DNA from: Candidatus Poribacteria bacterium
GTDB taxonomy: Bacteria > Poribacteria > WGA-4E > WGA-3G
Length of the DNA: 64,000 bases
Direction: 5' to 3'
NCBI GenBank assembly: GCA_965237835.1
Contig: OZ250160.1
Span: 18,371-82,370 of the forward strand
The position numbers and the translations under genes are program-made. The notes under the pieces were generated by a model. The model was given only the letters and a program-made list of their open reading frames with translations. It made no database searches and was not told the DNA's origin. Positions 10,047 through 25,460 of the stretch are shown here, piece by piece (the first letter of the stretch is position 1; each line of letters starts with the position of its first letter).

Positions 10047-13000
10047 CTATTTTCCTTCTAAAACATTGAAATAAGCATCTAATCCTTGGCGGAATTCTTC
10101 GGGTAGGACGCGTCCCGCTTTGCCAGTTGCTTGTTTCGGTGAGCGATTTTCGATGAATGCTTTACCACTGTCATCACCACTTCCCATGAGTCTTAGTGCG
10201 GAAATTATTGCCGCTAACCCTTGTCCTCCACCGCCCGGTGTTTGCCCACCACTGCCTCCACCAGGGGTATTTGGCATGCGTTGTGTTGCAAGCAGGATTT
10301 CGATTACTTCGCTGATAGCTGCGATAGCTTTTGGACCCGTGTCTGGCTTCGCAAGAATTGATTCTGCTTCGTCCATAACCAAGGCTGCTTGTGATACCTT
10401 GGCATGCTGCATCTGAATCAACTGTTCATCAATATTGGGTAACAGAGCTATTTCTCTTGCGATTTCATGGGTGTCCTCTGCGATATCGTATTGTGAGTCG
10501 CTCAATGCTTCGCTTCTTTCATAGTACTTGTCAGCACCGAGTGCATCTTTCGCTTGCTCAACTTCGCGCGTTTCCTCACGTAGTTGTATCTCGCGATTGA
10601 TGATGCGCAACACTTTTACAACGATTTCTGGTGGAAGATTAGGCAGGACCATCATCCCACCCTCTCCTCCGGGTGGTGGTTCGGGCAATGGATCTACCAA
10701 TTGTTCTGCCCACCGATCCAATGTATCCCCCCAATATTCTGCCTCAATGGTTGATAGACCGACAAAGTTCCTGTTAATAGATCGGACGAGATCACGCATC
10801 TGGTTCGCGACAGAAGCATCCTCCATCTCTGAAAGGACCCGTAAGTAGTTTGCAGAGGGACGTCTGTCGGCATACGCAGACATGTCTTGTATGATAGTTG
10901 TAACTTTTTTCGACTCAGCAGACTCAAGGTCCGCTAAACGTTTTCGTTGTGCCCGATTGTCTGTTCCTCTGTCTGCAAGACCGAAACTATCCAGATTGTT
11001 GAGATCCGCAGCAATGTCAATCTGTTTTCGTGAGGATGCTTTCAAACGTTTCACGAATGTGCTGTTTTCAAAACCGACCAGTAGTCTTTTCATCTCGTCT
11101 GATAGTTTGGCAAAGGCGTCAAGTAATTCCTGCTGTTCTTCGTAAGCCTCCAGAACAAGTTCTGATGCTTGTGGTGTTGATGCATTTTGATCTTCGTTTT
11201 GGTCTTGATCATCTCTTCCACTTCCTTTGAGTATCGTAGAAGGAATTCCCATACCACCTACAATTTGTGAAGGTGGTCCATCTGATGGCTTATCGGTTTT
11301 GTTGAATCCTGATTCAACATCTGACACACCAGGTGTTGGATTTTTAGGTGAAGAACCTTGTTTACCACCGCCTTGTGGCGGCTTGCTCCTATTCGCACTT
11401 GCTGAATCACCAGATTCGTTTGGATCATCCAGATCTTCATCTTCCTCCTCAGAGGATTCATCACTATCAGGACTGTCAACTCCATACTTTTCGAGTTCGT
11501 CTTCCGAATCGCTGGGTTTGCCTTCCGATTTACCAGCGGAATTTGACTGGCTATCAGTTGGAGGAGATTTGCTTTGCTGACCGCTATTTTCTGACGGCGG
11601 ACTGCTACTCTGTCCGGGTGTATCAGATGCCTGTCCGGGTGCCTCAGATGCCTGTGCAAGTAAATCTGCAACAGATGGCATTTTCTGTCCTGCGATCTCC
11701 TCTAACTGTTTGAGCATTTCAGCCCACGATTCGAGTTGGTTTGCATCAAATTCATCGTTTTTAGTTGCTTCTTGAAACAACTCTACGCCGCTTTCAATAA
11801 GACTATCAAGTCTTGCTGCGTTCGCACGTTCTGCGGAGGCTTGATTCTGTAAGGTCTTGCGCTGTGCTGGATCGTCAAGTTCTTCAGGGGTTAGTTCGCG
11901 CAGTTCGGTATTAGTTTGGTGTAACTGCAACTCTCTATCGTGGACATCCTTCGCTGCACCTGCCCAACGTTGCATCTGTCCGATTAGCCATTTGAAGTGT
12001 TCTGCTGGGGCAAGCACATGCAGCACAATCTGAGGTGAACGGGTACGTTCGCGGTTGGGAAAATAGTCCTCCACATAGGCACGCAAACGAAAACTCTGTG
12101 GCTGTACATTTTCACGTTCAACAGAGAATGTAGCGGGAACGTTAAGTTCCTCCGATGTCGGTGTACCTGATGACACAATTTTCTCGCCGATGGCTGGATT
12201 CGGGTTGTGGATCGGGTTCTTGATACCTTCCCACTCTAAGCCAACCTGCTTCACCCCGAAATCATCCCCCGCCTGAATCTCAAAGGCAAGTGTCTCTGTA
12301 GAAAGGATAACTTGATTGTTTTTTAGTTTTTTTATAGCAATTGTTGGTTTTGCATCGTCTTCTACCTCAAATTTTAGCACTTGCGGTTCACTTGCTTCGA
12401 GTCCAAAACGATCTCGCCATGTCAAACGCATCTCTGTTGTCGTATCTGTTGATATCGGTTCGGTCATCACGCGTGCCCCATCCACCTTCTGTGGACGATT
12501 GTTTAAAGTTGCTTCTGACAGTTCGCGTGTTGTGGTAGCCTCTAAGGTTGCGGTACTGCCTTTCACTAAGTTCACTATTCCGCCGCGTACATCATCTATT
12601 TTCGGTTCTTCGCGTTGTAGGTAGTCTGGCAGTTGAATTTTGGCAACAAGTTCTTTCAATGCTGGACGCAATTTTGGTTCAATAGGAATGGATCTGCGCG
12701 CATCTCCCACGCGAAGATTCACGCTGCCACCCTCAGTCTGTGGTGGTAATTGAAATTTATAGGTTGAATCCTCTCGTTCTGCGGCTATAGGTGTTTGATC
12801 TGCGTATCGCGCCTCGCCTGACTCAGGTTTCCATGGTGACTCGTCTTTCAGTCGTGCTTCAATATCAAAAGGCTCCGCATAAGCAACCACCCGAAGGTCC
12901 GGCTTGCCATCCAATTGTGCAAAGGTATACCGATCTACGTCACGCCACGGAGTCAACCATCGAGCAAGGGCATTCCGAGTCGTTGCGGGGATTACAAGTA

Positions 13001-13523
13001 TCCCGACGATGACTAAGACTAATGGCAAACCTACTGCCAATGTCCACCGACGGTGTTTCGGATTCGGCACAGCATCTGCGAGGTTGTGTTTTGCGACCTC
13101 TTCGTCAACTTGACGCATTGCTGCTTCAACTAAGGCAGGACTTGATAGCTGGTCCGACCTATTTGACGCAAGTTCCACGATACCGAGTACATGATCACCG
13201 AAACGGGGAAACTTATGTTGTAATAACTTTGCTATTCCCTCTAATTGCCGATTTCGCCACACCCACTTGTAATATTTCAACGGTAACAGCACTACCATCC
13301 CAACCATGCCGATTGCCAGGATGAGCGCGCGCAGCAGCGCAGGCGTATCAAAAATTCGGTCTAAGCCGAACACGATGAGATATGAAACTATGAGACCAAA
13401 TATTGCTGCTAACGTGCCTTCGGCAAGTTTGATTATCCATACCCGTTTTCGGTACTGTTCTAACGCTTTTTTCATACGCGGGGGAAGGTTCACGCCGTTT
13501 TTTTCTGGTTGTGTTTGGTTCAT
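10047..13523 (-). CDS. Large membrane-anchored coiled-coil protein (DUF4175-like) of the MoxR cluster
   Basis: N-terminal TM helices, AGDDFGV motif, low-complexity S/G/E region, C-terminal LPEEFRQGLDAYF. Confidence 0.75.
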   Translation of the reverse strand: MNQTQPEKNGVNLPPRMKKALEQYRKRVWIIKLAEGTLAAIFGLIVSYLIVFGLDRIFDTPALLRALILAIGMVGMVVLLPLKYYKWVWRNRQLEGIAKLLQHKFPRFGDHVLGIVELASNRSDQLSSPALVEAAMRQVDEEVAKHNLADAVPNPKHRRWTLAVGLPLVLVIVGILVIPATTRNALARWLTPWRDVDRYTFAQLDGKPDLRVVAYAEPFDIEARLKDESPWKPESGEARYADQTPIAAEREDSTYKFQLPPQTEGGSVNLRVGDARRSIPIEPKLRPALKELVAKIQLPDYLQREEPKIDDVRGGIVNLVKGSTATLEATTTRELSEATLNNRPQKVDGARVMTEPISTDTTTEMRLTWRDRFGLEASEPQVLKFEVEDDAKPTIAIKKLKNNQVILSTETLAFEIQAGDDFGVKQVGLEWEGIKNPIHNPNPAIGEKIVSSGTPTSEELNVPATFSVERENVQPQSFRLRAYVEDYFPNRERTRSPQIVLHVLAPAEHFKWLIGQMQRWAGAAKDVHDRELQLHQTNTELRELTPEELDDPAQRKTLQNQASAERANAARLDSLIESGVELFQEATKNDEFDANQLESWAEMLKQLEEIAGQKMPSVADLLAQASEAPGQASDTPGQSSSPPSENSGQQSKSPPTDSQSNSAGKSEGKPSDSEDELEKYGVDSPDSDESSEEEDEDLDDPNESGDSASANRSKPPQGGGKQGSSPKNPTPGVSDVESGFNKTDKPSDGPPSQIVGGMGIPSTILKGSGRDDQDQNEDQNASTPQASELVLEAYEEQQELLDAFAKLSDEMKRLLVGFENSTFVKRLKASSRKQIDIAADLNNLDSFGLADRGTDNRAQRKRLADLESAESKKVTTIIQDMSAYADRRPSANYLRVLSEMEDASVANQMRDLVRSINRNFVGLSTIEAEYWGDTLDRWAEQLVDPLPEPPPGGEGGMMVLPNLPPEIVVKVLRIINREIQLREETREVEQAKDALGADKYYERSEALSDSQYDIAEDTHEIAREIALLPNIDEQLIQMQHAKVSQAALVMDEAESILAKPDTGPKAIAAISEVIEILLATQRMPNTPGGGSGGQTPGGGGQGLAAIISALRLMGSGDDSGKAFIENRSPKQATGKAGRVLPEEFRQGLDAYFNVLEGK

Positions 13524-13609
13524 TGAAATTCTCCTATTGAAGGGCTATTTATTGGTAAAAAAGTCTTCATTTCTGAAACTGATTACTGAAATTTATTAAC
13601 CATCGTATA

Positions 13610-13699
13610 ATACAAATTAACTTGATTAGAAGTTTTCCGATAAAGTCAGCATTGTGAGGCACGGGGACCTCACACTACAAATCGGGGTAATTTGATATA
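13610..13699. mobile_element. Family-A MITE (a half copy also at 13758-13797)
   Basis: TIRs plus GTGAGGCACGGGGACCTCACACTAC core. Confidence 0.8.
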
Positions 13700-13797
13700 A
13701 ATCGTTTTTAGTTGTGCAATTCACTCTGCCTCTTTTGTCACAGTATTTTGCCATCTGATACCACATTAACTTGATTCGACGTCTTTAGATACATGTG

Positions 13798-14967
13798 TTA
13801 GTGTGAAAGGAGATACGATTCTGTCTTGTGTTGTGCCTCTATTTGGCGTTCCCGTGGCAGATAAATCGCAACTGAGATGCCGATACCGTGTAAATATTGA
13901 CACATCAAGGGGCCAACCACTTTCCAGTCCATACCTCCTAATCCACAACCAAGGGCAGGCATTGCAAGCGATTGAATGCCTTGCCTGTGAATATTGTCGC
14001 GAACCCACGCAAGTCCACCTTCAATATCATCTAAACGTGAGTTATCTTTCCAATGCCGTTTCGTCGCGAAAAGCAGGAACCACTTCACAGCATTAGGGGT
14101 AACAAGCGGTGTTCCAAGATCAGCTAATTCCTCATCCAATGAACTTTCACGTTTGTAGAGATAAGGTTTTGTTGCTGTGATTCGCTTTGCTCGGCAGACA
14201 TCTTGATATGCTACATAGACATCAGGGAATTGGTATTTGGCACGCGAGGCCAATCCTTTTCCCATAACCCCTTGAAGATTAACGCTAATAGTTAGTGTCT
14301 GCAGATTTGAGAAGAACATATCACCATCAATTAGTGAAATGTTATTGCCGATTTTTGTCCGACTGTTTGGTTGGAAGAACATATCTGGTTCGAAACTAAC
14401 AGTAACTTGGGAATCCCCAATAATTTCCTGGACAGTATCTCGCGCTGAATTTCCTGCAACATAGACTGTTTGAATATGTTCAGGTTTGACGTGGTCCGGA
14501 ATTAGACATTCTGCCATAATTTTCCGCTTGGATCCATCATCTCTATTCCACCAATCGCTCTGAATAATTGACCACTGCTGTTGAAGTACTTCCATGCCTT
14601 TAGAAGGATAGTAAAAGTGTGTTGTCTCATGCGCGGCGTTCCCATCCGTGATAAAAATCCCTTGTTCAGACAACACTTTTGTATTAATACCGACAACAGC
14701 AAGATTCCTTAAATCTTTTTCATGGACAACGCGGTACATCATAGCGTTACGAGGTTGGAAGTAGAGATTAGCATAAGACCAGAGATCCCTTGTATCAGGT
14801 GTCGTTATTTGGTTACGTCGACTGACGATATCCGCGTCATAGATAGGGGTTGGATTTACCTCTTCTGCTTCAACTTTTTCGTGGGAAAAAACTCCTCGTG
14901 CAAGAATAGAAGGGAGATTGTTTATATGCGTAATGTAGTAGAGTTCTCTTATATCCAATTTCTGCAT
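13798..14967 (-). CDS. darT: DarT ssDNA thymidine ADP-ribosyltransferase fused to a DarG-type macrodomain
   Basis: N-half: LYYITH, SRR, YANLYF..RNAMMY, TDGNAA, KIMAE. C-half: GDMF, VNLQGVMGKG, FATK, MPALGCGLGG. ATG 14967 is preceded by GGAGG; the longer start in the track lies within a MITE. Confidence 0.85.
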   Translation of the reverse strand: MQKLDIRELYYITHINNLPSILARGVFSHEKVEAEEVNPTPIYDADIVSRRNQITTPDTRDLWSYANLYFQPRNAMMYRVVHEKDLRNLAVVGINTKVLSEQGIFITDGNAAHETTHFYYPSKGMEVLQQQWSIIQSDWWNRDDGSKRKIMAECLIPDHVKPEHIQTVYVAGNSARDTVQEIIGDSQVTVSFEPDMFFQPNSRTKIGNNISLIDGDMFFSNLQTLTISVNLQGVMGKGLASRAKYQFPDVYVAYQDVCRAKRITATKPYLYKRESSLDEELADLGTPLVTPNAVKWFLLFATKRHWKDNSRLDDIEGGLAWVRDNIHRQGIQSLAMPALGCGLGGMDWKVVGPLMCQYLHGIGISVAIYLPRERQIEAQHKTESYLLSH

Positions 14968-15003
14968 AATTACCTCCCCAATTGACAAGCCAAATTTATG
15001 TCC

Positions 15004-15093
15004 TACCAAATTAACGGGATTTATCTCATTTTTCTTGGTATTAGGTGCGGTTAGAAACCGCACCTACCGAGTGGGATCAAGTTAATTGGGTAT
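15004..15093. mobile_element. Family-A MITE with GGTGCGGTT/AACCGCACC REP hairpin
   Basis: TACCAAATTAAC...GTTAATTGGGTAT; abuts the stop codon of the vWA gene. Confidence 0.8.
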
Positions 15094-17300
15094 TATATCG
15101 TGCCTGCCATTTTGCGTGCAACCCAGAATAAGCCGAGCAGCAAGATAATCGATCCTCCCCAAAATGGGTTTGCCCAGATACGTGTTCTTTTGACAATTGG
15201 TTCAGGGTCTGGTAGGGCTGCCAGATGATCCAATAAGGTTCCGACCTCAGCAATTGACACTAATTTACCATCGGTGATTTTTGCGATTTCGTCCAAAACA
15301 TCAAAACGCGCCAGACGTCCCTGTTGTTCCCGATTTAAGCCCTGCACTGAAAGATCCGTTTGAACGGAAGCACCCGTTTCGCTACTGGTCGCAATGAGGC
15401 GGTAGTTACCAGATTCTTTCGGCTCAAATGTTCCGACGAACAATCCTAACGCATCTTTTATGCCCGGTTGAAGTCGTATTGTCTCCGTTTTGCCTGATGG
15501 TGAAAGTGCTTGCACAGTAACAGTGCCCCTATCCAACGGACCACCAACGTTATCCATCACATTTGCATTTAATGTTAGAACGTCATCAACGTGTGGTCTG
15601 TCTGGTGAGTAGAACATTCGTATAGATTCGCCTTGTGCCATCTGCCGGCGATATGCCATCCATCGTGCAACTTGGCTCCAAAAACGATAGTGATATTTGT
15701 CTTCCACACCATGCCGCCAACGCCACGCGCTGTCTGTTCCCATGAACAGTACTTTACCCGTGCCGTAGGTCTTTGTTACGATGAGCGGCACGCGTCCGGA
15801 AACTGTGGCAACTTGATCATGCACTGCCAGAATCTCTGTGCCAACTTTTGCGCGTTTGATGCCCGCGTACCAGAAAAACCCCGGTAATGTGCGCCACACC
15901 TCGTCATTGTCAAGGTCAGTATCTCCAAGCCTCGTTAACAAACTACGCTGTCCGGGCCCAGTAAGTGCGAAATATCCTTGTATACTTGAACCGACACCAT
16001 TCGGTGTTGTTGGGTCTAAGACAACAGGATAGAGGTCAGCAAGGGGACCGCCAGTCAACGATTCTTGTGCTCCTGTCCGTCCCGGTAGGAAAACAATTCC
16101 AGAAGCTTGCGCACTGATGAGTTGCCGTAAGTCCTGTGCTTGTTCGACCGTTAGCTGCTCAGGGGATATACCGACATCCCCAAGGAATACCACATCAAAT
16201 TTGCTAAGTTCTCTGGCATCAGGAAAATTCTTAATGTAACCGCGTCCGCCTCCAACCTGTGGTAATTCGGGGTGAAAAAGCAGACAAGTTACGTCAACAC
16301 CTGCATCCCGTTCTAAAGCATTGCGTAAATATCGGTATTCCCAACGCGGCAAAGATTCAATTACAAGGACTTTCAACTGCTCTTTCCGTATAGATATAGG
16401 CGCAGTGAGTTCATTGTTTTCGGGAATCAGCTCTTCCGCCTCCTTTGCGATATTTAGTTTTAATGTGTAATCGCCTGTTTCCTTCGGTGTCCAAGTCATA
16501 TTTTCTTGTGCTTGCCCCATAGCGGGAACATTGATAGTTTTGGAAATCGTTTGCTCATCATCAATGCTTAAAGTGAGGGTGACCTCTTTGTCTTGTCCTA
16601 TAGTGTTCCGTACGACAAACGGAATGCGAAGTTGCTTTTTTGTTACGCCATAAGTGGGTGTGTCCATACTGACTAACTCAAGGTCAGGCAATGGCACCTC
16701 ACTGCCGATTCCCACCGTGAAAACGGGAATTCCTTGCATGTGGAACCGTGTTGCTGCATCCACTGGTGATTTGCCGATGTTCCAATCACCATCCGACAGT
16801 AGTACTACACCGCGAAGGTTGTCATGATTTTCCAATACGTGCGACAATCCAGCGTTAATATCTGTTGCTTCTTCTGCTGGGTCTAATAGCGAAGAGAACG
16901 GCTCGAATACTACGTTGAGTTCCGAATCATCTGCTGGTTTCCAAACTTCCTCGGACATGAGCGGTTGAATCGTTTCTGCGCGACTTTTGCGGTTAGCGGT
17001 GGTGTCTTGTTCGTTAATAACATCTTGTGTTTGCATGCTGATGGATTTATCCCACAGCACTGCAAGTGTGGAACGTCGTTCCAGCGGTTGGGATTCTAAC
17101 CATTCGGGTTGATTTAGCGTGAGAACTACGAGGCAAACGAGCACAAAACGTAGCAACTCAAGCAATCCGATTCGTTTGCGGTAACCGCTGCGGTGCCATG
17201 CGAACGAACATAATACGCCGGCTGCAATGACGAAAATTAGTCCCAGAATTATAACGGGACCGTTTGAAAAGAATTCAAGGTGTCCTTGTTGATCTTGCAT
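15093..17300 (-). CDS. vWA plus glutamine-amidotransferase-like membrane protein of the MoxR cluster
   Basis: DKSISM MIDAS-like motif, LLSDG, PRWEYRYLRNAL, GTDSAWRWR, terminal TM helices. Confidence 0.8.
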   Translation of the reverse strand: MQDQQGHLEFFSNGPVIILGLIFVIAAGVLCSFAWHRSGYRKRIGLLELLRFVLVCLVVLTLNQPEWLESQPLERRSTLAVLWDKSISMQTQDVINEQDTTANRKSRAETIQPLMSEEVWKPADDSELNVVFEPFSSLLDPAEEATDINAGLSHVLENHDNLRGVVLLSDGDWNIGKSPVDAATRFHMQGIPVFTVGIGSEVPLPDLELVSMDTPTYGVTKKQLRIPFVVRNTIGQDKEVTLTLSIDDEQTISKTINVPAMGQAQENMTWTPKETGDYTLKLNIAKEAEELIPENNELTAPISIRKEQLKVLVIESLPRWEYRYLRNALERDAGVDVTCLLFHPELPQVGGGRGYIKNFPDARELSKFDVVFLGDVGISPEQLTVEQAQDLRQLISAQASGIVFLPGRTGAQESLTGGPLADLYPVVLDPTTPNGVGSSIQGYFALTGPGQRSLLTRLGDTDLDNDEVWRTLPGFFWYAGIKRAKVGTEILAVHDQVATVSGRVPLIVTKTYGTGKVLFMGTDSAWRWRHGVEDKYHYRFWSQVARWMAYRRQMAQGESIRMFYSPDRPHVDDVLTLNANVMDNVGGPLDRGTVTVQALSPSGKTETIRLQPGIKDALGLFVGTFEPKESGNYRLIATSSETGASVQTDLSVQGLNREQQGRLARFDVLDEIAKITDGKLVSIAEVGTLLDHLAALPDPEPIVKRTRIWANPFWGGSIILLLGLFWVARKMAGTI

Positions 17301-17323: not shown

Positions 17324-20300
17324 TTAATGTTCTCTTTCTTCGTCAATCTTTGCGTGTTCAATTTGCTCTTTCAGAAATGGGGTAAATTCATTAATCCAAC
17401 GATTAACTTTTTCCTCATTATCGCTGTTCTGGATGTCAACTAGTTTCTGTAGTTTCTCTTGATAGTGTAAACTAGCAGGTCCAGAGAATCCTTCTGTTGA
17501 ATAATTTGATATCAATGTACTTCTAACATCTTTCCGATCTCCATACCGAACAAGAATTTTTCGTGCTAGAGAATCATGCCATTCTTCTATCAAAAGGGTT
17601 TTTGGAACAAATTCACGGGCAAGATACCACGCGCGATTTTCCACATCTCTGTCAACCCATTCCCAAATATTTTCGCGTGGAATTAAGGTCAATGCCCCTT
17701 TTTCTTTTTCTGTCTCTGAAAGGTCTCCTTTTCTAAGCCAATTTCCTAAGGATATTGTTCTTGAAAAATTATCACGACTGTCCAAATATTCACTAACGTA
17801 CTTCCAAACCTCGGCGGGATATTCTTTAGTGGTTTCAGTGAGGAACGAGCAACTTTGTGAGAAAGAATCAAAGATTGTTCTATCATTACCGAAGGGAACC
17901 AGCATGAGTTGTACTAACTCTAAAGCCTTTTGAGAGTAAAGGTGTAGAAATACATTTGCTGTTTTTGTCCAATAGAAATCTGTCATTGTATCATACCTAT
18001 AATTATCGGATTCTTTAAACAATTCTGGATGTGAAAGGAGGCGGAATGTAAGTTCATCTGGTAAAGTCAGTTCTGGTTTCCGAGAAATGTAGTAATTGTA
18101 GAACAATTTCAACGCAATGTCTACAGCTGACCTATCTGTAATATTCACAAGAAATTCTACCCAAGCCTGAAATACACTTTCGGATAAACTAGTAATTGCA
18201 TTTTTGTATATGAATAATCCAAAATCGTAGATATTAATAATACCGTTTTCTGCCAGGTTGAGAACTCGAAGCCCCGCTTGATCAGTTAGACCCGAATATT
18301 GTGTAAGAGATGGTATTATCGCGTTAAGTGTAGTATCCTCACAGAGTGCGTCAAGTTGATCCTCCCATAGTTCCGAATCACTATCAAACATCGCATGGAA
18401 ATAACCACCCAGAAAATAAGTACTTGCATTGTCCCCCGCGTTTCGTTGAGCATCAAGAAGCGTCGGTAGAAGTGAAAGAGACTCATCTCTCTGTCCAAGT
18501 TCATATCCAAACTTATTGCCATTCTTTGCTTCGGTAGTCACAAGCCATGATAATTCCGATCCCAAAAGGACAGGATTATCTATAGATTGCTTAGCGAGTG
18601 TTTCAAGGTGAGGTTTAACTTTATCGACTCCGTCTCTGTCTTCAATAAGAAGGTCCTCAACCAGATCCATCCCAACATACCGTTGCATGAGCGAATGAAA
18701 GTCGGAACCAATTAATTCATCTCTGAGTTGCTCAAAGCGTTGTCGGATTTCGGACGGTAAACCTTTGTTGTCAACATAGGAATCATCATGAAATAAAATT
18801 CCGCTAATTGCTTCAATAATCTGTTTTTCGCTTGCCAATTTATGTTTGATAATTGTTCTAAATGTATTCACAACCATATCACCTAAGGTAGGAATCCTTC
18901 CGAGTGAGCCTGCACGTCCAAGAAGAATTTCTACAACTTCTTTACGTTCATCTGCGTGCAAATGTTCTAATTGTTCAGATAGAAGTTGCCATACTTGGCG
19001 GTAGGCATCCCAAAGTTCACCGTATGTTTTGGGTTCCCAAAGTTTAAGGATTCCGCGTAACCCTTGATATTCTGCTCCTGACATCCGTGAGAAATGATCG
19101 GATATTAAACCTTTATGGCAAGCTTTAAGAGCAAGGGCTCGTCGTTCTTTTGAGCCAGACTCAAACGCTTCTTTCAAGACAGGCAAACGTTCTACGGGAG
19201 GTGCTTCGGTTGGTGCCACTTTACCAGTACCTGGTGAAAAGAGTTCCGCAAACACACCACTAGCGTTATTTGAATAGGTTTCATTTTCCGCTTCGCCGAG
19301 GGCGAGAAGTAACCTTGCAGCATCAACAAACAGGTCCCGATGCATCGCAATTTTTTCAAGTGCCCATATCACATTCCTTCGCCCTCCTGTAAATTCCAAA
19401 AGGGTGTCCTTATCCCAGGTGCCTATCGTTCGCATCAGGCATTTTAAAGCAGACTCTGGATCTGCTTCAGTCAGTGTGAGAAAAAAACTACTGCCCAACC
19501 TTGTGTTTAGATATTCATTATTCTGAAAAGGACCGTTTGGTCCGAGATGACCTTCAACTATTCTTAATGCGGGTTCTGATTCGGAGGCGTACCGAAACAT
19601 TTCATTAAACCATTCAATCAACTTAGGAGGAAAGTCTTTAATGAAAGTATCATAGTCGAACGGGTTTCCATAAACTTGCCACCATTCCACCCATAACTTG
19701 ATTTGGAGTGCCTTTGGCGTTATATAGAGCGTACTTCCTCCTTGAAGGATTTTACGTTTCTTGAGGGTATCAATAATTTCTTGAAATCTGTGCCAAGTAA
19801 CCTGTGAATTAGCTGCCTCAATCTTTTTGGCAATTGCTTGTGCCTCAACCACAAGAGGTCCCCCAAAGCCAAATTGCTTAAAAAGTGCTATATACCGAAG
19901 TACCAATTCTCTCTGGTGAACTTCTGGACTATTAGGATTCTCTTTTCCAAAGTCAACGTAGAAATTCTTATACAGATAGTCATCAGTCAACAGTTGGGAT
20001 GGGTCTCCAGGGTAATTGGCTAGAATTTTACCTGTGTGCAGTGCCATTCGTGGAGAACCACCACAAAATTGCAGATATAGGTCTGCCGTTTCTTTAGGAA
20101 CACCATATCCCTGAATGATAGTGAGAATCTGCTCATCCTGCAAGTGCTCCATTTCAAATTCGGAAATACCGCTGCCAGCAATCGGGTCGTGGTTGTTATA
20201 AATGCTAATCAACTTAATTCGAGATCCACGGTATTGCAGTTTATCCCAAATATAAAATCGACTTTCCGGATCACACTCATCAATCACTAAAATAATAGAA

Positions 20301-21151
20301 AAATGGTTGTCATCTCTAAGGATTTGGTTCAGCAAAAATCTGTCAGTTAAAAACTCAGCAGCAGTACATTTAATAACGAGCGGTGCTAAATCGTCAGTCC
20401 TTGTGGCTTCTAAAACGAGCTTCGTTTTTCCTATACCGGGCTCCCCTAATACCCGCACGTGAACTGTATTGTGCTTTTCTCGCAATTCATTTTGAATTTT
20501 TGGAATCAATTCACTCTGCGATTGACCGGGGAAAAATGGAACTCGCATCGTCCCATCTTCAGACCAACTCTGATGGGTTTGGAAAAACCCTCGATCATTC
20601 CTATTGACCCACAACGCTAACGATGGGAACGACTCAAGGAAGGCTATCAGGGTATTCTGAGTAAATACGTCCACTTTGGGATGTGGATAATCACACTGCC
20701 TCAAGTAATCTTCAATATGAGAACGAATTTTTTCTCGATTAGGCACAGTAGGATCAATTCCGGTGCAGACTAAAACGTAAGTGCCATCAACATCAAGGCA
20801 CGCTCGAATACTTTCACCAAGATTCTGTCGCTCAGGCGTTTTTGTGCCGAAAAACTCTTTCTTAATCTCTGACTTTTGCCACGGTTTAAATTCAGATCCT
20901 GATTTAATTTGGTAACAAGTTTTTCCTTGCTTAATGATCCCGGATCCTCCTGCAATTTGAGCATCATCTACGGAAGCATCAACTCCACCATCTGGGACAG
21001 TATTCCAACTTGACACAGTAATATCGCTGATTTTTACTCCAAGGCTCCGCGCTTCTGCCCAAAGCAGTTTCTGGAAGAATTCAACTGCTGTATTTTGATC
21101 AAGTTGGTTAAGATGCTCATTTTTTACGGTAAAAATAGTTTCAATATTCAT
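17324..21151 (-). CDS. Putative STAND-class NTPase with N-terminal Mrr-like PD-(D/E)xK nuclease and long helical C-terminus (Avs-like)
   Basis: PDGGVDA...YQIKSG, Walker A GEPGIGKT, Walker B LVIDEC, GGSP helical-domain motif. Confidence 0.65.
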   Translation of the reverse strand: MNIETIFTVKNEHLNQLDQNTAVEFFQKLLWAEARSLGVKISDITVSSWNTVPDGGVDASVDDAQIAGGSGIIKQGKTCYQIKSGSEFKPWQKSEIKKEFFGTKTPERQNLGESIRACLDVDGTYVLVCTGIDPTVPNREKIRSHIEDYLRQCDYPHPKVDVFTQNTLIAFLESFPSLALWVNRNDRGFFQTHQSWSEDGTMRVPFFPGQSQSELIPKIQNELREKHNTVHVRVLGEPGIGKTKLVLEATRTDDLAPLVIKCTAAEFLTDRFLLNQILRDDNHFSIILVIDECDPESRFYIWDKLQYRGSRIKLISIYNNHDPIAGSGISEFEMEHLQDEQILTIIQGYGVPKETADLYLQFCGGSPRMALHTGKILANYPGDPSQLLTDDYLYKNFYVDFGKENPNSPEVHQRELVLRYIALFKQFGFGGPLVVEAQAIAKKIEAANSQVTWHRFQEIIDTLKKRKILQGGSTLYITPKALQIKLWVEWWQVYGNPFDYDTFIKDFPPKLIEWFNEMFRYASESEPALRIVEGHLGPNGPFQNNEYLNTRLGSSFFLTLTEADPESALKCLMRTIGTWDKDTLLEFTGGRRNVIWALEKIAMHRDLFVDAARLLLALGEAENETYSNNASGVFAELFSPGTGKVAPTEAPPVERLPVLKEAFESGSKERRALALKACHKGLISDHFSRMSGAEYQGLRGILKLWEPKTYGELWDAYRQVWQLLSEQLEHLHADERKEVVEILLGRAGSLGRIPTLGDMVVNTFRTIIKHKLASEKQIIEAISGILFHDDSYVDNKGLPSEIRQRFEQLRDELIGSDFHSLMQRYVGMDLVEDLLIEDRDGVDKVKPHLETLAKQSIDNPVLLGSELSWLVTTEAKNGNKFGYELGQRDESLSLLPTLLDAQRNAGDNASTYFLGGYFHAMFDSDSELWEDQLDALCEDTTLNAIIPSLTQYSGLTDQAGLRVLNLAENGIINIYDFGLFIYKNAITSLSESVFQAWVEFLVNITDRSAVDIALKLFYNYYISRKPELTLPDELTFRLLSHPELFKESDNYRYDTMTDFYWTKTANVFLHLYSQKALELVQLMLVPFGNDRTIFDSFSQSCSFLTETTKEYPAEVWKYVSEYLDSRDNFSRTISLGNWLRKGDLSETEKEKGALTLIPRENIWEWVDRDVENRAWYLAREFVPKTLLIEEWHDSLARKILVRYGDRKDVRSTLISNYSTEGFSGPASLHYQEKLQKLVDIQNSDNEEKVNRWINEFTPFLKEQIEHAKIDEEREH

Positions 21152-21235: not shown

Positions 21236-23245
21236 TCAATCTGCGGGTGCGAAGTCTGTCAGCGAACTACTTTCAGGTTTCTTGCTTGGTAGACTTAAGA
21301 TTGCTTCCACAATGAGTGCTATCGCCATCGCAATGAGAAATGTGCGCCAGAGTTCATTGGCTAAAGATGAGGTGTCTCCGACCTCTACATCTATTCGCCG
21401 ATACGACAATCCATCAAAGAGTGCGTCTACTGTCTCAACGGGTGCTGCTTTAGCGGTGTCTTCAGCGGAGCTGCGGTTCACGGCTACCCAATACGCCTCG
21501 TCTCGGTAGACTCCAGCATGTAACCCGCGTTGTGAAAGGGATGCAGCATTTCCTTCAGGTGCAACCGCCTCCCATTTTTCACGGTCTGCAAGTGCATCAG
21601 GTGCAGCGTCGCGTTGAGATGCTTCAGTCAATGCGCGGCATCCCTCAGCTAACGCACGCTGCAACATCACATAAAAGACTATCCCGTCCCGTTCAAGAGA
21701 AGAAAATTGCGCTCTTGGTAGTGTGCTACAGAAATATACTGCACCGTTGTCAGTATTTACACGTGTTAAGAGTGGTGAATCGTCTCCGAACCTTGCTAAC
21801 GGCGTTCCGCTGCTCTCAATAGCACGATACCGATAGGTGCGTAGATCGTTCAAAGGTAAAGGGTTACCACTATCTACATGTGCCAGCAGATCCGCATCGC
21901 CACGCCACCACGAAATCTGGGAAACTTGCTCATCATCAGGTATCTGCCAATCGTTCCAACGCGTGTCAAACATTTGATCACCAGCATCCTGACTCGGTGG
22001 GAAAAAGATGACGACTCGTCCACTGTTAACGAAATTCTGAACCTGCTCCGCAACCAACTGATTAGGTAAAGCTGCCTGCCAGATTAACAATCCTGTATTT
22101 TCCCAATCAATCTCCCCAACACGGCTGACAGGAATCACATCTGCTTGATGTTGATGTCTGGCGTCCGTTGGTATATTGAGGGCGCGCCGAAACGCGTCGC
22201 CAGTTCTAGCATCATCACTAACGATGACCGATTTGCGCACAGGCGATTCTGAAAATACAAAGAAAAATCGATTGTCCAACGAATTCGCGTCACCCGGTAA
22301 CCCGACTGACCCCCATCCCGAAGTGAGTGTGCCGTCAATTGGGATGCGGTGTCCTTGCAATGATGCCCCGCGTGTATCAAGTTCAACTTCGACCACAGAT
22401 CGAACGTTGTTAACTTCAAACTCAATGGGCACTTCTCGTATTGCAGTATTGCTGCCTTCAGTGCGAACCATCACATCAAGAATGAGTTCCGCTTCGTTAC
22501 CGCGTTGCCATCGTTGTACGTTTTCCACCCTAACTGATAAGTTGTTCGAAGCTAGTGCTGAATATGCGAGCAGGAAGTGATTCACACCGTCTAATTGTGT
22601 CAATTCTTGTCGTATCGCATCCCAACGTCCGCTGTCAACAGCCCAATCGTTCTCTTGAAGGTCAGAGCAGAGCCAGACATCAGCACGTCCAGAATTGTTA
22701 GTTTTGAGATAGGTTAAGGCAGATTCAAACATGCCCGGAATATTGGCACTAGTAGCACTTGAATCCGTCATAGGAAGGCTTAACAATGCCTTTGGTGAAT
22801 CTACTTCTTGCAGCTGCCCGGTTGCGCTATCAATCAGAATCAGGTGAGTGCCGTAATCTCCTTGTTCCAGCAACTGTGTGAGTCTTTTTAGTGCTGTTGA
22901 TCTTTTTGACTCACCTGCCTGTAAGTCTTGCATTTCCATACTCGCGGATCGGTCAAGTAGTACCATAGTTACATCGGGTTTTGCTAATCCAATGCTTCCC
23001 AACCATCCACCAGAGAGCGGTCTGCTAATGGCAAAAATCAAAGCCGCAATAGCAAGTACACGCATCAGCAGTATGAGGATATGTCGGATACGTGCCATGC
23101 CTTTACTCATGCGTTTGGCGGTCACAAGGAACATCATCGCTGCCCAGGGGACTGTCCGATGTCGCTGTTGATTAATCAAGTGAATGATGACCGGTAGCAG
23201 CATCAGAGGGAGTGCTATTAAGGCAAAAGGTTGTAGGAAATTCAT
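21236..23245 (-). CDS. BatA domain / vWA protein
   Basis: MNFLQP..LPVIIHLI..WAAMMFL BatA N-terminus; DRSASM. Confidence 0.85.
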   Translation of the reverse strand: MNFLQPFALIALPLMLLPVIIHLINQQRHRTVPWAAMMFLVTAKRMSKGMARIRHILILLMRVLAIAALIFAISRPLSGGWLGSIGLAKPDVTMVLLDRSASMEMQDLQAGESKRSTALKRLTQLLEQGDYGTHLILIDSATGQLQEVDSPKALLSLPMTDSSATSANIPGMFESALTYLKTNNSGRADVWLCSDLQENDWAVDSGRWDAIRQELTQLDGVNHFLLAYSALASNNLSVRVENVQRWQRGNEAELILDVMVRTEGSNTAIREVPIEFEVNNVRSVVEVELDTRGASLQGHRIPIDGTLTSGWGSVGLPGDANSLDNRFFFVFSESPVRKSVIVSDDARTGDAFRRALNIPTDARHQHQADVIPVSRVGEIDWENTGLLIWQAALPNQLVAEQVQNFVNSGRVVIFFPPSQDAGDQMFDTRWNDWQIPDDEQVSQISWWRGDADLLAHVDSGNPLPLNDLRTYRYRAIESSGTPLARFGDDSPLLTRVNTDNGAVYFCSTLPRAQFSSLERDGIVFYVMLQRALAEGCRALTEASQRDAAPDALADREKWEAVAPEGNAASLSQRGLHAGVYRDEAYWVAVNRSSAEDTAKAAPVETVDALFDGLSYRRIDVEVGDTSSLANELWRTFLIAMAIALIVEAILSLPSKKPESSSLTDFAPAD

Positions 23246-23528: not shown

Positions 23529-24434
23529 TCACATTCGCCTTTTTGGGGTTCGTCCCAATAGGAATTTTGCCAATACGTCGCCGTAGTCCTCGTTGATACA
23601 GATACGATGGTAGTCCATTTCTGTGCCGCGGATAACTTCGTTCATGCTTTCGAGATATACTTCAAGTGCGCGGCGATATTGCGTTCCAATAATGATTGGG
23701 TCTGCCAATATGGGTTCGCCCCCCTCCATATCAACAAAGCGCATTGGACGATCGAACTTAAAATCGAGTTCGTTCTGCTCCATGAGATGAAACACCGCTA
23801 CATCGTGTTTACGGAATCGTAGGTGCTCAAAACAGTTCCGCGCCACTTCCGGTTCAATGAAGAGATCAGAGATGATAACAATAAGTGCTCGCTGGGGGAC
23901 ACGTTCAGCAGTCTCATGAAGAATGTCTGCTAATCCTGTCTCACCAGTCGGTTCAACCGCTCCGAGTTCATCAAGCACCGTACTGAGGTGTGTTGCGCTT
24001 CGCTTAGGTGGGATCTCTTTGTGGAAATGTTCACCTGCACAGTAGAGTCCGACAGCATCGCCTTGTAGTGCAGCGATATAGGCTAAGGTGCCGCCGATGC
24101 GCCGTGCATAGTCAAGTTTGCTCATACCGTTGTAGGCGAACCCCATGGATCCGCTGGTATCAACGATTAAGCACATGCGCAGGTTCGTATCTGCCTCAAA
24201 TTCCTTGATGTAGTATCGATCATTACGGGCATACGCGCGCCAATCAAGTCTTCGTGTGTCATCGCCCGGCACGTACTTACGGTATTCAGCGAATTCAAGG
24301 CTTGACCCACGGATAGGACTACGATGTTTGCCGGATACGTTCCCTATCATCGGCAACCGAGCATGTAGTTGCAGCGTTGAGAGACGTTCAAGGACCGTCT
24401 GGTTGAGGTAATCTCGTTTGAGTTGTAGTGCCAT
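23529..24434 (-). CDS. DUF58 domain protein
   Basis: G.HRS...G.S.EFAEYR.Y.PGDD.R..DW; DTSGSM; ISD. Confidence 0.92.
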   Translation of the reverse strand: MALQLKRDYLNQTVLERLSTLQLHARLPMIGNVSGKHRSPIRGSSLEFAEYRKYVPGDDTRRLDWRAYARNDRYYIKEFEADTNLRMCLIVDTSGSMGFAYNGMSKLDYARRIGGTLAYIAALQGDAVGLYCAGEHFHKEIPPKRSATHLSTVLDELGAVEPTGETGLADILHETAERVPQRALIVIISDLFIEPEVARNCFEHLRFRKHDVAVFHLMEQNELDFKFDRPMRFVDMEGGEPILADPIIIGTQYRRALEVYLESMNEVIRGTEMDYHRICINEDYGDVLAKFLLGRTPKRRM

Positions 24435-24437
24435 ACT

Positions 24438-25460
24438 TTACCTCTGTTCGGTCAACTCTTCTACGAGACGTTCAACGATGTCTTGGCTGGTAATGTTTTC
24501 AGATTCGGCAGCGAAGGATGTAATGACACGGTGTGCAAGCACTGGATTTGCTACTGCGATGACATCTTCAAGCCGTGCCATGTAGCTACCGCTGAGTGCA
24601 GCGCGTGCCTTCGCACCGAGTATTAAGTATTGAACTGCCCGTGGACCGGCACCCCAAGCGATGAGAGGTTTGAGCCAATCAGGTGCTGCATCGCCTTTTG
24701 GTCGTGTGCTGCGTGCTAAGTCAACAGCGAATTCATAGATATGCTCGGAAACTGGGACGCGACGCACAAGGTTTTGAAAGGCTATGACCCGTTCACCCGA
24801 CAGGACATGTTCTAACGTAGGAAGTGACATTCCGGTTGTAGTTCGAGCAATTTCGATTTCTTCAGATCGTGTCGGATAGTCCACATCGATTCTGAACATA
24901 AATCGATCCAATTGTGCTTCTGGTAATGGGTATGTGCCTTCCTGCTCAATTGGGTTTTGCGTTGCTAACACAAAGAACGGCGGAGCTAACTGGTAGGTCC
25001 TGCCGATTACAGTGATCTTGTGTTCCTGCATAGCTTCAAGCATTGCAGCTTGGGTTTTGGAAGGTGCACGGTTAATCTCGTCTGCAAGGATGAGATTAGC
25101 AAACAGTGGACCCTTTACGAACTCAAACTCGCGTCTACCGCCTGGAATTTCTTGGAGGATGTCTGTGCCGGTGATGTCCATCGGCATGAGGTCAGGTGTG
25201 AATTGGATTCGACTGAACTCCAATGCCATGGTTTCGGCAAACCGGCGCACCAAAAGCGTTTTCGCCAATCCGGGGACACCCATCAATAGTGCGTGCCCTT
25301 GCGAAAACAGACAGATTGATAAGTCTTCAATGACTTGATCCTGACCGATGATGATCTTTGCAAGCGACTTCTTTAATTGGCCGTAAACATCTCTAAGTTC
25401 GTCAATAGCAGCAACGTCGTCAGCATCCATTGCGTCGGTGTGTTGTGGTGTTGTTTGCAT
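24438..25460 (-). CDS. moxR: MoxR family AAA+ ATPase
   Basis: GVPGLAKT, RIQFTPDLMP, DEINR, ATQNPIEQEGTYPLPEAQLDRF. Confidence 0.95.
   Translation of the reverse strand: MQTTPQHTDAMDADDVAAIDELRDVYGQLKKSLAKIIIGQDQVIEDLSICLFSQGHALLMGVPGLAKTLLVRRFAETMALEFSRIQFTPDLMPMDITGTDILQEIPGGRREFEFVKGPLFANLILADEINRAPSKTQAAMLEAMQEHKITVIGRTYQLAPPFFVLATQNPIEQEGTYPLPEAQLDRFMFRIDVDYPTRSEEIEIARTTTGMSLPTLEHVLSGERVIAFQNLVRRVPVSEHIYEFAVDLARSTRPKGDAAPDWLKPLIAWGAGPRAVQYLILGAKARAALSGSYMARLEDVIAVANPVLAHRVITSFAAESENITSQDIVERLVEELTEQR

What the first reader, a model, noticed from the sequence alone, without database searches (positions are those of the whole stretch)
13798..14967. DarT toxin and DarG macrodomain fused in one polypeptide
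Seen: one uninterrupted 389-aa ORF with DarT motifs including the catalytic-position Glu (KIMAE), followed by a DarG macrodomain with the TK lysine motif. DarG's C-terminal domain is absent, and MITEs flank the gene on both sides. Known: DarTG2 is normally a two-gene anti-phage toxin-antitoxin pair in which DarG erases thymidine ADP-ribosylation and binds DarT. Inference: a writer-eraser in one chain needs another switch (phage-triggered conformational change or proteolysis), or it maintains a reversible DNA mark.
Basis: partly seen in the sequence, partly recalled or inferred. Interest (0 to 1): 0.7.

Follow-up and report, generated by a model that had tools for sequence, protein, structure and literature searches.

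The report
Single-chain DarT–macrodomain (DarTG) gene
This is a real gene that joins a DNA-modifying toxin domain (DarT) to the enzyme domain that undoes its mark, but the design is already known from a solved crystal structure and is common in several bacterial phyla, so it is a new member of a known kind.

Summary
Window 13798-14967 (minus strand) is one uninterrupted 389-aa ORF with a GGAGG ribosome site. It has a DarT domain (aa 10-198, Pfam E 3e-49) and a DarG-type macrodomain (aa 210-383), and DarG's C-terminal domain is absent. Independent assemblies and contigs from RNA libraries cross the domain junction without indels.

It is not a new architecture. The protein aligns end to end (E 1e-125) with PDB 7OMU, "Thermosipho africanus DarTG in complex with ADP-ribose", released 2021. 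A scan of species genomes found 267 relatives, and the best 80 are 60-98% identical, from Poribacteria, Cyanobacteriota, Planctomycetota and others.

Both active sites are conserved: E153 and K303 in 80/80 loci, R51 in 77/80. The macro half is more conserved than the DarT half in 80/80. The gene is accessory: 89/176 genomes of the phylum carry it, and same-genus genomes show empty sites. Macro-only derivatives exist, and no intact DarT-only orphan was found.

The flanking "MITEs" are two genome-wide repeat families unrelated to the gene's own spread.

Best reading: a self-neutralised one-gene DarTG2-type toxin/eraser module, probably defensive. Its switch is unknown.

The parts
13798..14967 (-). 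Single-chain DarTG ORF, 389 aa plus stop
   Evidence: Full-length match to PDB 7omu, E 1.2e-125, aa 6-387.
14374..14940 (-). DarT (DarT2-like) ADP-ribosyltransferase domain, aa 10-198. Holds H14, R51, Y69 and E153 (codon 14509-14511).
   Evidence: Pfam E 3.3e-49. Foldseek to Thermus and Mtb DarT E ~1e-12, against DarT1 8baq at 2e-9. A profile aligns full length to 7omv and 7yk3 but only patchily to 8baq. Residue tallies.
14341..14373 (-). Short linker, aa 199-209 ('FQPNSRTKIGN')
   Evidence: It lies between the domain envelopes. Macro-only derivatives in relatives begin within it.
13819..14340 (-). DarG-type macrodomain, aa 210-383. Holds the G-K-G loop (K237), T302-K303 (codon 14059-14061) and the 'GCGLGG' loop.
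   Evidence: PADLOC DarG profile 2-157/329. NCBIfam DarG 1-158/338. 5m31 and 5m3i at E ~1e-17.
14973..14977 (-). Shine-Dalgarno-like GGAGG, 5 nt before the ATG
   Evidence: Read from the sequence.
13542..15091 (.). Block with no counterpart in same-genus genomes whose 735-aa and 1158-aa genes are adjacent (the accessory insert: gene plus both intergenic flanks)
   Evidence: blastn break points against L110, L111 and L113. Gene maps.
13606..13700 (.). ~95-nt dispersed repeat in the 3' flank. It lies within a 148-nt block (13610-13757) that one public contig lacks.
   Evidence: 59 matches in the genome. Direct repeats 13613-13627 and 13762-13776. An X17 contig skips 13609->13758. L017 has a different ~140-nt element there.
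15004..15092 (.). 89-nt hairpin repeat with terminal inverted repeats in the 5' flank
   Evidence: 50 matches in the genome. Fold -19.8 kcal/mol, z -6.35.
15093..17300 (-). Upstream operon gene (735 aa, CARDB domain), a host gene of the MoxR-DUF58-BatA operon
   Evidence: Orthologue 85-89% identical in 5 of 5 same-genus genomes that lack the DarTG gene.
10047..13523 (-). Downstream operon gene (1158 aa, no Pfam family)

Best explanation
The gene encodes a natural single-chain DarTG. An N-terminal DarT2-like domain would use NAD+ to ADP-ribosylate a base (most likely thymidine) in single-stranded DNA. A C-terminal DarG-type macrodomain would hydrolyse that mark. Covalent tethering replaces the DarT-binding C-terminal domain of two-gene DarG, so toxin and antidote are made in fixed 1:1 ratio and the host genome is kept clean by the attached eraser.

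It is an accessory, horizontally spread gene that sits here as an insert inside a MoxR-DUF58-BatA operon. Its most likely role is that of a one-gene toxin-antitoxin or anti-phage module of the DarTG2 type.

Shown: the architecture, its orthology to 7OMU, conservation of both catalytic centres, the accessory distribution, the decay pattern (the eraser survives alone, the writer does not) and a partial association with defence genes.

Inferred: enzymatic activity, thymidine specificity, toxicity and the defence role. What tips the balance towards the writer is unknown.
For: Identity:
- The match to 7omu is end to end (E 1.2e-125), and that chain carries Ala at the E153 position. The entry title is 'Thermosipho africanus DarTG in complex with ADP-ribose'.
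- The DarT half is nearer to DarT2 than to DarT1. Its 'TDGNAA' segment matches 'SDGNAA' of M. tuberculosis DarT.

Both centres are kept. In 80 related loci the counts are E153 80/80, Y69 80/80, H14 79/80, R51 77/80, K303 80/80 and K237 78/80, and 79/80 have no stop.

The eraser is under the tighter constraint. The macro half is more conserved than the DarT half in 80/80 loci (median 78% against 57%).

Decay pattern in 176 genomes of the phylum:
- Nine macro-only genes of ~200 aa are 72-79% identical to aa ~196-388. All 5 that I fetched are intact ORFs starting in the linker, with no DarT beside them.
- With this query, every DarT-only hit was either beside a gene with a macrodomain (a fused DarT-macro gene, or a separate short macro ORF in G005), truncated, or at a contig end.

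Accessory status:
- 89/176 genomes of the phylum and 27/39 of the genus carry it.
- Of 5 same-genus genomes without it, 3 have the two flanking genes adjacent and 2 carry other cargo.
- GC is 42.7%, against 47.6-48.7% for the operon's own genes.

Defence neighbourhood:
- 10 of 31 representative contexts (9 lineages) have a PADLOC defence-type hit within two genes. These include type II/III restriction-modification genes, a ZorD/DpdE-like SNF2 helicase and a PD-T4-6-type kinase.
- In the window, a PD-Lambda-4_A-like gene lies two genes upstream.

No neighbour is conserved across lineages, so the gene looks self-contained. Contigs from RNA libraries of three studies cover the ORF.
Against: - No activity, toxicity or phage data exist for this protein. 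I found none in print for any fused DarTG, and the one paper likely to hold them was not readable.
- About two thirds of the representative contexts are plain housekeeping neighbourhoods, such as 6PGD, PolA, LepA, PurL and urease accessory genes.
- The gene keeps the same site across 15 Poribacteria loci and 16 Nostocaceae-type loci. Taxon labels cluster on the tree (9 changes against a minimum of 5). This steadier inheritance is not typical of many defence genes.
- A permanently tethered eraser gives no obvious way to release the toxin.
- No sigma-70-like promoter or terminator of its own was found.
- RNA-library contigs can contain DNA, so expression is not proven.
- The AlphaFold model is poor in the macro half (mean pLDDT 71; aa 219-304 below 50).
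Confidence: 0.6

Rival explanations
1. A housekeeping writer-eraser that keeps a transient, reversible ADP-ribose mark on host ssDNA, for example at replication origins or forks. It would tune replication or growth, as proposed for mycobacterial DarTG at oriC, and would not act against phages.
For: - Both centres are conserved.
- The position is stable across species within lineages: 15 Poribacteria loci and 16 Nostocaceae-type loci.
- About two thirds of contexts are housekeeping neighbourhoods.
- The tree largely follows taxonomy.
- A review passage describes Mtb DarT marking TTTW at oriC and controlling growth.
Against: - Presence is patchy even within the genus (27/39), and clean empty sites exist.
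- Macro-only derivatives occur.
- GC is lower than in the host operon.
- Defence genes lie beside it in 9 lineages.
Confidence: 0.2
2. An ssDNA-gated NAD+ sink. Because writer and eraser are tethered, each cycle on a target motif converts NAD+ to nicotinamide plus ADP-ribose and regenerates the DNA. Abundant phage ssDNA would then drive NAD+ depletion, an abortive infection achieved without lasting DNA damage.
For: This is inference only. It follows from the 1:1 fusion of two intact centres and the lack of any partner gene. It would explain how a chain with a permanently active eraser can still harm a phage.
Against: No data bear on it. DarT turnover rates are unknown to me. The scheme gives no self/non-self discrimination beyond the amount of ssDNA. 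The macro-only derivatives fit a toxin-antidote logic better than a sink.
Confidence: 0.08
3. Chiefly an eraser. The DarT-like half serves to find DarT target DNA or to bind DarT proteins, and the chain protects the cell from DarT toxins encoded elsewhere: by a second gene, a mobile element or a competitor.
For: - A paralogous clade (49-62% identical) sits directly downstream of a free-standing DarT gene in 16 of the 25 loci examined, plus 2 with a truncated one.
- The macro half is the more conserved one.
- The genome has a second, different DarT (WD40-DarT).
Against: - In the window's clade E153, Y69, H14 and R51 are kept in 77-80 of 80 loci, which is not expected of a mere binding module.
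- The other DarT in this genome has its own NADAR antitoxin next to it.
- The planned binding prediction could not be run.
Confidence: 0.08
4. An assembly or sequencing artefact that fuses two adjacent genes (darT and a short darG).
For: None found.
Against: - Independent contigs cross the junction without gaps.
- 79/80 related loci are uninterrupted.
- The fused form was crystallised as a single chain.
Confidence: 0.01

Closest known systems
Thermosipho africanus DarTG (PDB 7OMU, released 2021-06-23)
   Same: Same one-chain architecture, domain order and length class (406-aa chain). Collinear alignment of aa 6-387 with chain 23-404 at E 1.2e-125. Same motifs around H14, R51, E153 and K303.
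   Different: The host phylum differs (the window's nearest relatives are Candidatus Poribacteria). The crystallised chain has Ala at the E153 position. I could not read what the depositors' paper reports about its activity.
Canonical two-gene DarTG2 (Thermus aquaticus, M. tuberculosis, EPEC)
   Same: DarT2-like fold and H-Y-E plus Arg residues. DarG-type macrodomain with the catalytic Lys. The expected chemistry is reversible ADP-ribosylation of thymidine in ssDNA (passages).
   Different: One gene instead of two. DarG's C-terminal DarT-binding domain is absent. Sequence is distant: Thermus DarT E 1.9e-5, and both NCBIfam equivalog scores fall below their cut-offs. Plasmid and phage hits were all two-gene forms below 60% identity, and the three records I opened (H16, H17, H1) confirmed this.
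DarTG1 (DarT1 with NADAR antitoxin)
   Same: The toxin belongs to the same DarT superfamily. The same genome carries one such pair, as a WD40-DarT fusion.
   Different: The eraser here is a macrodomain, not a NADAR. The DarT half matches DarT1 (8baq) only over its first ~40 residues plus a weak second stretch.
Fused toxin-antitoxin defence proteins such as CapRel(SJ46)
   Same: Toxin and neutralising domain in one chain. A preprint passage describes a phage protein binding a fused toxin-antitoxin and releasing the toxin. The name CapRel is recalled, not taken from a call.
   Different: Unrelated folds. Here the neutralising domain is an enzyme that reverses the product, not only a lid on the active site, and no trigger is known.

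Membership tests
DarT (Pfam PF14487) DNA ADP-ribosyltransferases | Profile match above the curated cut-off over the whole domain | tested here: met
   167.8 bits against a cut-off of 22.5, profile 1-201/201.
DarT (Pfam PF14487) DNA ADP-ribosyltransferases | H-Y-E residues plus the catalytic Arg of the NAD+ loop | tested here: met
   H14, Y69, E153 and R51 align with Thermus DarT. They are kept in 79, 80, 80 and 77 of 80 loci. The residue roles come from passages.
DarT (Pfam PF14487) DNA ADP-ribosyltransferases | DarT fold | tested here: met
   Foldseek to 7omv, 7omy and 7yk3 at E ~1e-12, target TM 0.68-0.76. The DarT half of the model has pLDDT mostly 75-94.
DarT (Pfam PF14487) DNA ADP-ribosyltransferases | ADP-ribosylation of a base in ssDNA, and which base | not testable with these tools
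   Needs an enzyme assay. Sequence is nearer to thymidine-specific DarT2 than to DarT1.
DarG antitoxin (NCBIfam NF048014, PADLOC DarG) | DarG-type macrodomain with the catalytic Lys (K80 of T. aquaticus DarG) | tested here: met
   aa 210-383 match profile positions 2-157. K303 aligns with the first Lys of 'FPTKKHW' in 5m31. K303 is kept in 80/80 loci.
DarG antitoxin (NCBIfam NF048014, PADLOC DarG) | C-terminal DarT-binding domain | tested here: not met
   Only 157 of 329 (PADLOC) and 158 of 338 (NCBIfam) profile positions are matched, and the protein ends 6 residues later.
DarG antitoxin (NCBIfam NF048014, PADLOC DarG) | Equivalog score cut-off | tested here: not met
   133.8 bits against 250. 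The DarT equivalog also falls short, 104.7 against 150.
Two-gene type II DarTG toxin-antitoxin system | Separate toxin and antitoxin genes in one operon | tested here: not met
   One ORF. Confirmed by independent contigs.
Two-gene type II DarTG toxin-antitoxin system | The toxin arrests growth and the antitoxin rescues | not testable with these tools
   Indirect support only: macro-only survivors and no intact DarT-only orphans in 176 genomes.
Single-chain DarTG (type: PDB 7OMU) | DarT and macrodomain in one chain, collinear over the full length with the solved protein | tested here: met
   aa 6-387 against chain 23-404, E 1.2e-125. Foldseek rank 1, E 1e-38.
MITE (for the flanking repeats) | Short, non-coding, many dispersed copies, terminal inverted repeats, insertion polymorphism | tested here: inconclusive
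   Copies: 59 and 50 matches. The 89-nt unit has terminal inverted repeats and a hairpin. The 3' element is absent from one public contig and is bounded by a 15-nt direct repeat. No parent transposon was looked for, and some copies stand in tandem arrays.

The most novel reading that the evidence does not exclude
The single-chain DarTG is an autonomous one-gene immune module whose switch lies outside the chain. A phage-dependent event disables or outruns the tethered macrodomain, so the DarT half marks replicating phage ssDNA. Two versions of this are possible:
- In Nostocaceae, the switch could be phosphorylation by the PD-T4-6-type kinase whose gene overlaps the DarTG start by 4 nt.
- Here, the switch could be a surge of ssDNA that turns the writer-eraser pair into an NAD+-burning cycle.

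The three states seen at one Poribacteria site (fused gene, free DarT plus fused gene, macro-only) would then be stages of an arms race over that switch.
Probability: 0.15. Interest if true: 0.65.

Novelty: new member of a known kind. Interest (0 to 1): 0.3.

Why it matters
DarTG is a well-studied DNA ADP-ribosylation toxin-antitoxin and anti-phage system, and DarT2 is being adapted for genome editing (abstract of PMC13368585). The one-chain form poses a clean question: how can a toxin be useful when its antidote is welded to it?

The architecture is not new, because a structure exists. The comparative facts gathered here may still be useful:
- The fused form is common in Poribacteria, Cyanobacteriota and Planctomycetota.
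- Its eraser half is the more constrained half.
- It decays to eraser-only genes.
- A sister clade pairs it with a free DarT.
- In Nostocaceae it is translationally coupled to a PD-T4-6-type kinase.

These give concrete, cheap experiments on regulation. For annotation, the gene should be called a fused DarT/DarG-macrodomain protein, not a 'DUF4433 protein'.

Tried and rejected
Literature:
- The likely primary paper (Schuller et al. 2021, Nature; authors and journal from the reference lists) is not held. LeRoux et al. 2022 is not held either.
- Full-text searches found nothing on a fused DarTG: '7OMU'; 'DarTG fusion', 'fused DarTG', 'DarT-DarG fusion', 'DarT-macrodomain fusion' and 'Thermosipho africanus DarTG'; 'Thermosipho africanus' + DarT; DarT + macrodomain + 'single polypeptide'; DUF4433; Poribacteria + DarTG.
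- Passages read in PMC5179494, PMC8883491, PMC11543638, PMC11125620, PMC9503650, PMC11825919, PMC9411070, PMC13368585, PMC13309987 and bioRxiv 2023.12.14.571748 do not mention it. Subscription papers and supplements were not seen.

Ideas dropped:
- Guanine specificity. N110 aligns with the thymine-contacting His of Thermus DarT, and DarT1 has Asn there. But thymidine-specific Mtb DarT also has 'DGNAA', and free DarTs of the sister clade have Ile.
- An inactive DarT half in the sister clade. MAFFT put Cys or Ser at R51, whereas BLAST aligned an Arg there in most. The result depends on the alignment, so it is not claimed.
- The flanking repeats as carriers of the gene. Relatives with the gene lack them.

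Tools and searches that gave nothing:
- Close fused relatives on plasmids or phages. All hits were below 60% identity. The three records I opened (H16, H17, H1) hold two separate genes, and the remaining listed phage hits cover only the macrodomain half.
- Complex prediction, for free DarT against the fused protein of the sister clade, was not available.
- The promoter/terminator scan found nothing usable.
- The macro half of the AlphaFold model is low confidence, so no interface reading was attempted.
- The 1-nt gap at 14624 in a single depth-5 X17 contig is treated as an error.
- The PADLOC hits of L045 (a PCMT methyltransferase scored as mad2) and L091 (PolA scored as RTasPolA) are treated as false positives.
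Full report
**1. What is there.** On the minus strand, 13798-14967 is one open frame of 389 codons. It starts at an ATG preceded by GGAGG five bases upstream. The mechanical ORF list extends it to a GTG at 15063, but homologues begin at the ATG.

- Pfam finds DarT over aa 10-198 (E 3.3e-49, whole profile) and a weak Macro hit at aa 301-351.
- PADLOC finds DarT at aa 7-198, and DarG at aa 210-383 covering only profile positions 2-157 of 329.
- NCBIfam agrees (DarG positions 1-158 of 338), and both equivalog scores fall below their cut-offs.

E153 in 'KIMAECL' aligns with the catalytic Glu position of Thermus DarT. K303 in 'FATKRHW' aligns with the catalytic Lys of the T. aquaticus DarG macrodomain (residue roles from passages).

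**2. Not an artefact.**
- A 1916-nt contig of an independent public run covers 13818-14976 with three substitutions and no gap.
- RNA-library contigs from two studies cross the domain junction without gaps.
- A single depth-5 contig shows a 1-nt gap at 14624, which I treat as an error.
- In 80 related loci, 79 frames have no stop.

RNA-library contigs from three studies cover the ORF at depths like those of the neighbouring genes. That is compatible with transcription but does not prove it.

**3. It is a known architecture.** The protein aligns over aa 6-387 with chain 23-404 of PDB 7omu (E 1.2e-125), and that chain has Ala at the E153 position. Foldseek gives the entry title as 'Thermosipho africanus DarTG in complex with ADP-ribose', released 2021-06-23. 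I recall, but could not read, that it belongs to Schuller et al. 2021. None of the full-text searches or passages I read mentions a fused DarTG. What has been published on its activity is therefore unknown to me.

**4. How common.**
- The word-indexed protein search returned 2456 homologues. The best 120 are 346-404 aa and 66-99% identical. All 120 carry PF14487 and 111 of 120 also carry PF01661.
- In the 50%-identity representative library, 7546 proteins score E<=1e-3 and 91 score E<=1e-30. Of the 150 listed, 19 are single chains of 386-421 aa covering both domains at 38-55% identity. Longer two-stretch forms of 441-610 aa also occur.
- In one genome per species, 267 stretches encode a relative. 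The best 80 (60-98% identical) are mostly Candidatus Poribacteria. The rest include 24 Cyanobacteriota, 10 Planctomycetota, 3 Acidobacteriota, and one each of Chloroflexota and Calditrichota.
- The nearest locus (98%) is a Poribacteria chromosome, so the window is very probably from that phylum.

**5. Which DarT.** Structure and profile comparisons place the N-terminal half nearer to thymidine-specific DarT2 than to guanine-specific DarT1. Thermus and M. tuberculosis DarT score Foldseek E ~1e-12 with full-length profile alignments. DarT1 scores 2e-9 and matches only in patches.

I first suspected a guanine preference, because N110 aligns with the thymine-contacting His of Thermus DarT. That was dropped, because Mtb DarT has the same 'DGNAA' segment.

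**6. Conservation pattern.** Across the 80 loci:

| Residue | Kept in |
|---|---|
| E153 | 80/80 |
| Y69 | 80/80 |
| K303 | 80/80 |
| H14 | 79/80 |
| K237 | 78/80 |
| R51 | 77/80 |

The macro half is more conserved than the DarT half in all 80 loci (median identity to the window 78% against 57%). Both enzymes therefore look functional, and the eraser is under the tighter constraint.

**7. Accessory status and the site.** The gene lies inside a co-directional operon: MoxR AAA+ (24438-25460), DUF58/vWA (23529-24434), BatA-like (21236-23245), a 1275-aa gene, a 735-aa CARDB protein (15093-17300), the DarTG gene, and a 1158-aa protein (10047-13523).

- In the phylum, 89 of 176 genomes have a match at E<=1e-20 (68 of 133 high-quality genomes). 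In the genus the figure is 27 of 39.
- I examined five same-genus genomes without a match. In three, the 735-aa and 1158-aa genes are adjacent, with 59-255 nt between the aligned blocks. In two, other ORFs occupy the slot.
- The window block 13542-15091 has no counterpart in the empty sites.
- The gene's GC is 42.7%, against 47.6-48.7% for the operon's own genes.
- Fifteen Poribacteria loci carry the gene at this same site.
- On a quick maximum-likelihood tree the taxon labels cluster (9 changes, minimum 5, shuffled mean 32.9). Poribacteria fall into at least four clades, and a cyanobacterium and an acidobacterium sit inside the Planctomycetota clade.

The picture is an old accessory gene. It is mostly inherited within lineages, is gained and lost, and is occasionally transferred.

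**8. The 'MITEs'.** Both intergenic flanks hold short dispersed repeats: about 95 nt at 13606-13700 (59 matches in the genome) and 89 nt at 15004-15092 (50 matches).

- The 89-nt unit has terminal inverted repeats and folds as a strong hairpin (z -6.35). The 95-nt unit folds more weakly (z -2.9).
- The 3' unit lies in a 148-nt block bounded by a 15-nt direct repeat. One public contig lacks that block.
- The 98%-identical relative has a different ~140-nt element at that spot.

So they behave like small mobile repeats. But they belong to two genome-wide families, and relatives that carry the gene share only 13797-14988 with the window. They are later lodgers in the intergenic DNA and not part of the DarTG module.

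**9. Neighbours.** No neighbouring gene family is shared across lineages, so the gene appears self-sufficient. About two thirds of the representative contexts are housekeeping.

Within two genes, PADLOC defence-type hits occur in 10 of 31 representative contexts, or 9 lineages:
- type II or III restriction-modification genes (L025, L066, L088, L094);
- a type III methyltransferase apparently split by the insert (L082);
- a ZorD/DpdE-like SNF2 helicase (L085);
- an AriA/mad3-like ATPase (L037);
- PD-Lambda-4_A-like (L022);
- in Nostocaceae-type loci, a Ser/Thr kinase that matches PD-T4-6 over its whole profile (E 5e-175).

The kinase cluster is present in 16 loci, and in 13 of them its stop overlaps the DarTG start by 4 nt. 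In the window itself the 1275-aa gene two genes upstream is PD-Lambda-4_A-like (E 3e-25). Its slot is variable in relatives: an Eco57I-like 983-aa gene in L017, and nothing in L018.

**10. Natural experiments in relatives.** With the window protein as query in 176 genomes, three things stand out.

- (a) Nine genomes carry a ~200-aa macro-only gene that is 72-79% identical to aa ~196-388. All five I fetched are intact ORFs that begin in the linker. They lie between a WYL-type gene and a heparinase-like gene, the site where other Poribacteria carry the fused gene or the sister-clade pair.
- (b) No intact DarT-only gene stands without a macrodomain gene beside it. Such hits were beside a fused gene, beside a separate short macro ORF (G005), truncated, or at contig ends.
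- (c) A sister clade of fused genes (49-62% identical) has a free-standing DarT gene of 192-227 aa about 100-200 nt upstream. This holds in 16 of 25 loci examined; 2 more have a truncated one and 7 have none. Whether the fused DarT half of that clade is still active cannot be told from alignment, because MAFFT and BLAST disagree on the R51 column.

Points (a) and (b) are what one expects if the DarT half is harmful without the macro half.

**11. Mechanism.** I commit to the following, with about 0.6 confidence overall. Identity is near certain and function is about even odds.

The DarT half ADP-ribosylates thymidine in ssDNA, and the tethered macrodomain removes the mark. The covalent link replaces the DarT-binding domain of two-gene DarG. 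The module acts as a one-gene toxin/antidote system, most likely in phage defence.

The step that lets the writer win is not known. Candidates are inactivation of the macro half by a phage factor or a kinase, proteolysis of the linker, or sheer excess of phage ssDNA.

The rivals are:
- a housekeeping reversible DNA mark (0.2);
- an ssDNA-gated NAD+-burning cycle (0.08);
- an eraser that merely uses a DarT-like module for targeting (0.08);
- an artefact (0.01, refuted).

**12. Verdict.** This is a new member of a known kind, of modest interest. Its value lies in the comparative leads of sections 9 and 10 rather than in the architecture itself.

Noticed in passing
window 17324-21151 (-): A 1275-aa P-loop protein with no Pfam family matches PADLOC PD-Lambda-4_A (E 3e-25, aa 5-699). 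It sits as a second low-GC (40.6%) insert in the same MoxR-BatA operon. In relatives this slot holds an Eco57I-like 983-aa gene (L017) or nothing (L018).
   Followed up: partly
L098 (G000:C1:427538-431053), ORFs 316-2247 and 2260-2964: The same genome carries a second, different DarT system. It is a 643-aa WD40-repeat protein with a C-terminal DarT domain (aa 396-567, E 4e-20), followed 13 nt later by a 234-aa DarT1-associated NADAR antitoxin (PF22397, E 1.8e-86). A WD40-DarT fusion looks unusual.
   Followed up: partly
L046 4856-6004 and 15 further Nostocaceae-type loci (L051-L053, L056, L057, L059, L061-L065, L068-L070, L078): A ~380-aa Ser/Thr kinase matches PADLOC PD-T4-6 over its whole profile (E 5e-175). 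It lies directly upstream of the fused DarTG, and its stop overlaps the DarTG start by 4 nt in 13 of 16 loci. This may be a two-gene system.
   Followed up: partly
L099, L101-L103, L114-L119, L121-L125, L132 (genomes of the window's phylum): A sister clade of fused DarT-macro genes (49-62% identical) is preceded by a free-standing DarT gene in 16 of 25 loci examined, which makes two writers for one eraser. The NAD+-loop region of the fused copy carries a 6-residue insertion.
   Followed up: partly
L104-L108 (G149, G174, G172, G171, G168): Macro-only genes of 194-201 aa begin in the linker of the fused protein and are 72-79% identical to its C-terminal half. They occupy the site where other Poribacteria carry the fused gene or the sister-clade pair (between a WYL-type gene and a heparinase-like gene). 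Some have changed residues after the G-K-G loop ('LALHTKQ').
   Followed up: partly
L082 5359-5931 and 7200-7952: In a Planctomycetota contig, the ORFs on either side of the fused DarTG match the N-terminal (21-151) and C-terminal (387-616) parts of one type III methyltransferase profile. It looks as if the gene had been inserted into that methyltransferase.
   Followed up: no
L095 (Thermoguttaceae contig): In a different phylum, the fused DarTG again sits in a locus with homologues of three of the window operon's gene clusters (c17, c13 BatA-like, c1), upstream of the BatA-like and CARDB genes. This may be coincidence or a preferred landing place.
   Followed up: no
G000:C1:5843523-5843982 and other places listed: The ~95-nt repeat of the 3' flank also occurs in head-to-tail arrays, for example five successive copies about 92 nt apart. 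That is not typical of a simple MITE.
   Followed up: no
P0022 (alignment); L023, L070, L074, L096: Natural variants occur at catalytic positions of the DarT half. One database homologue has Ala at E153. Three loci have Pro, His or Lys at R51, and one has Gln at H14. These may be writer-dead alleles.
   Followed up: no
window 25612-26265 (-): A 217-aa ORF next to the MoxR gene matches the PADLOC PD_DExK nuclease model (E 4.9e-43), with no Pfam family at E<=1e-3.
   Followed up: no
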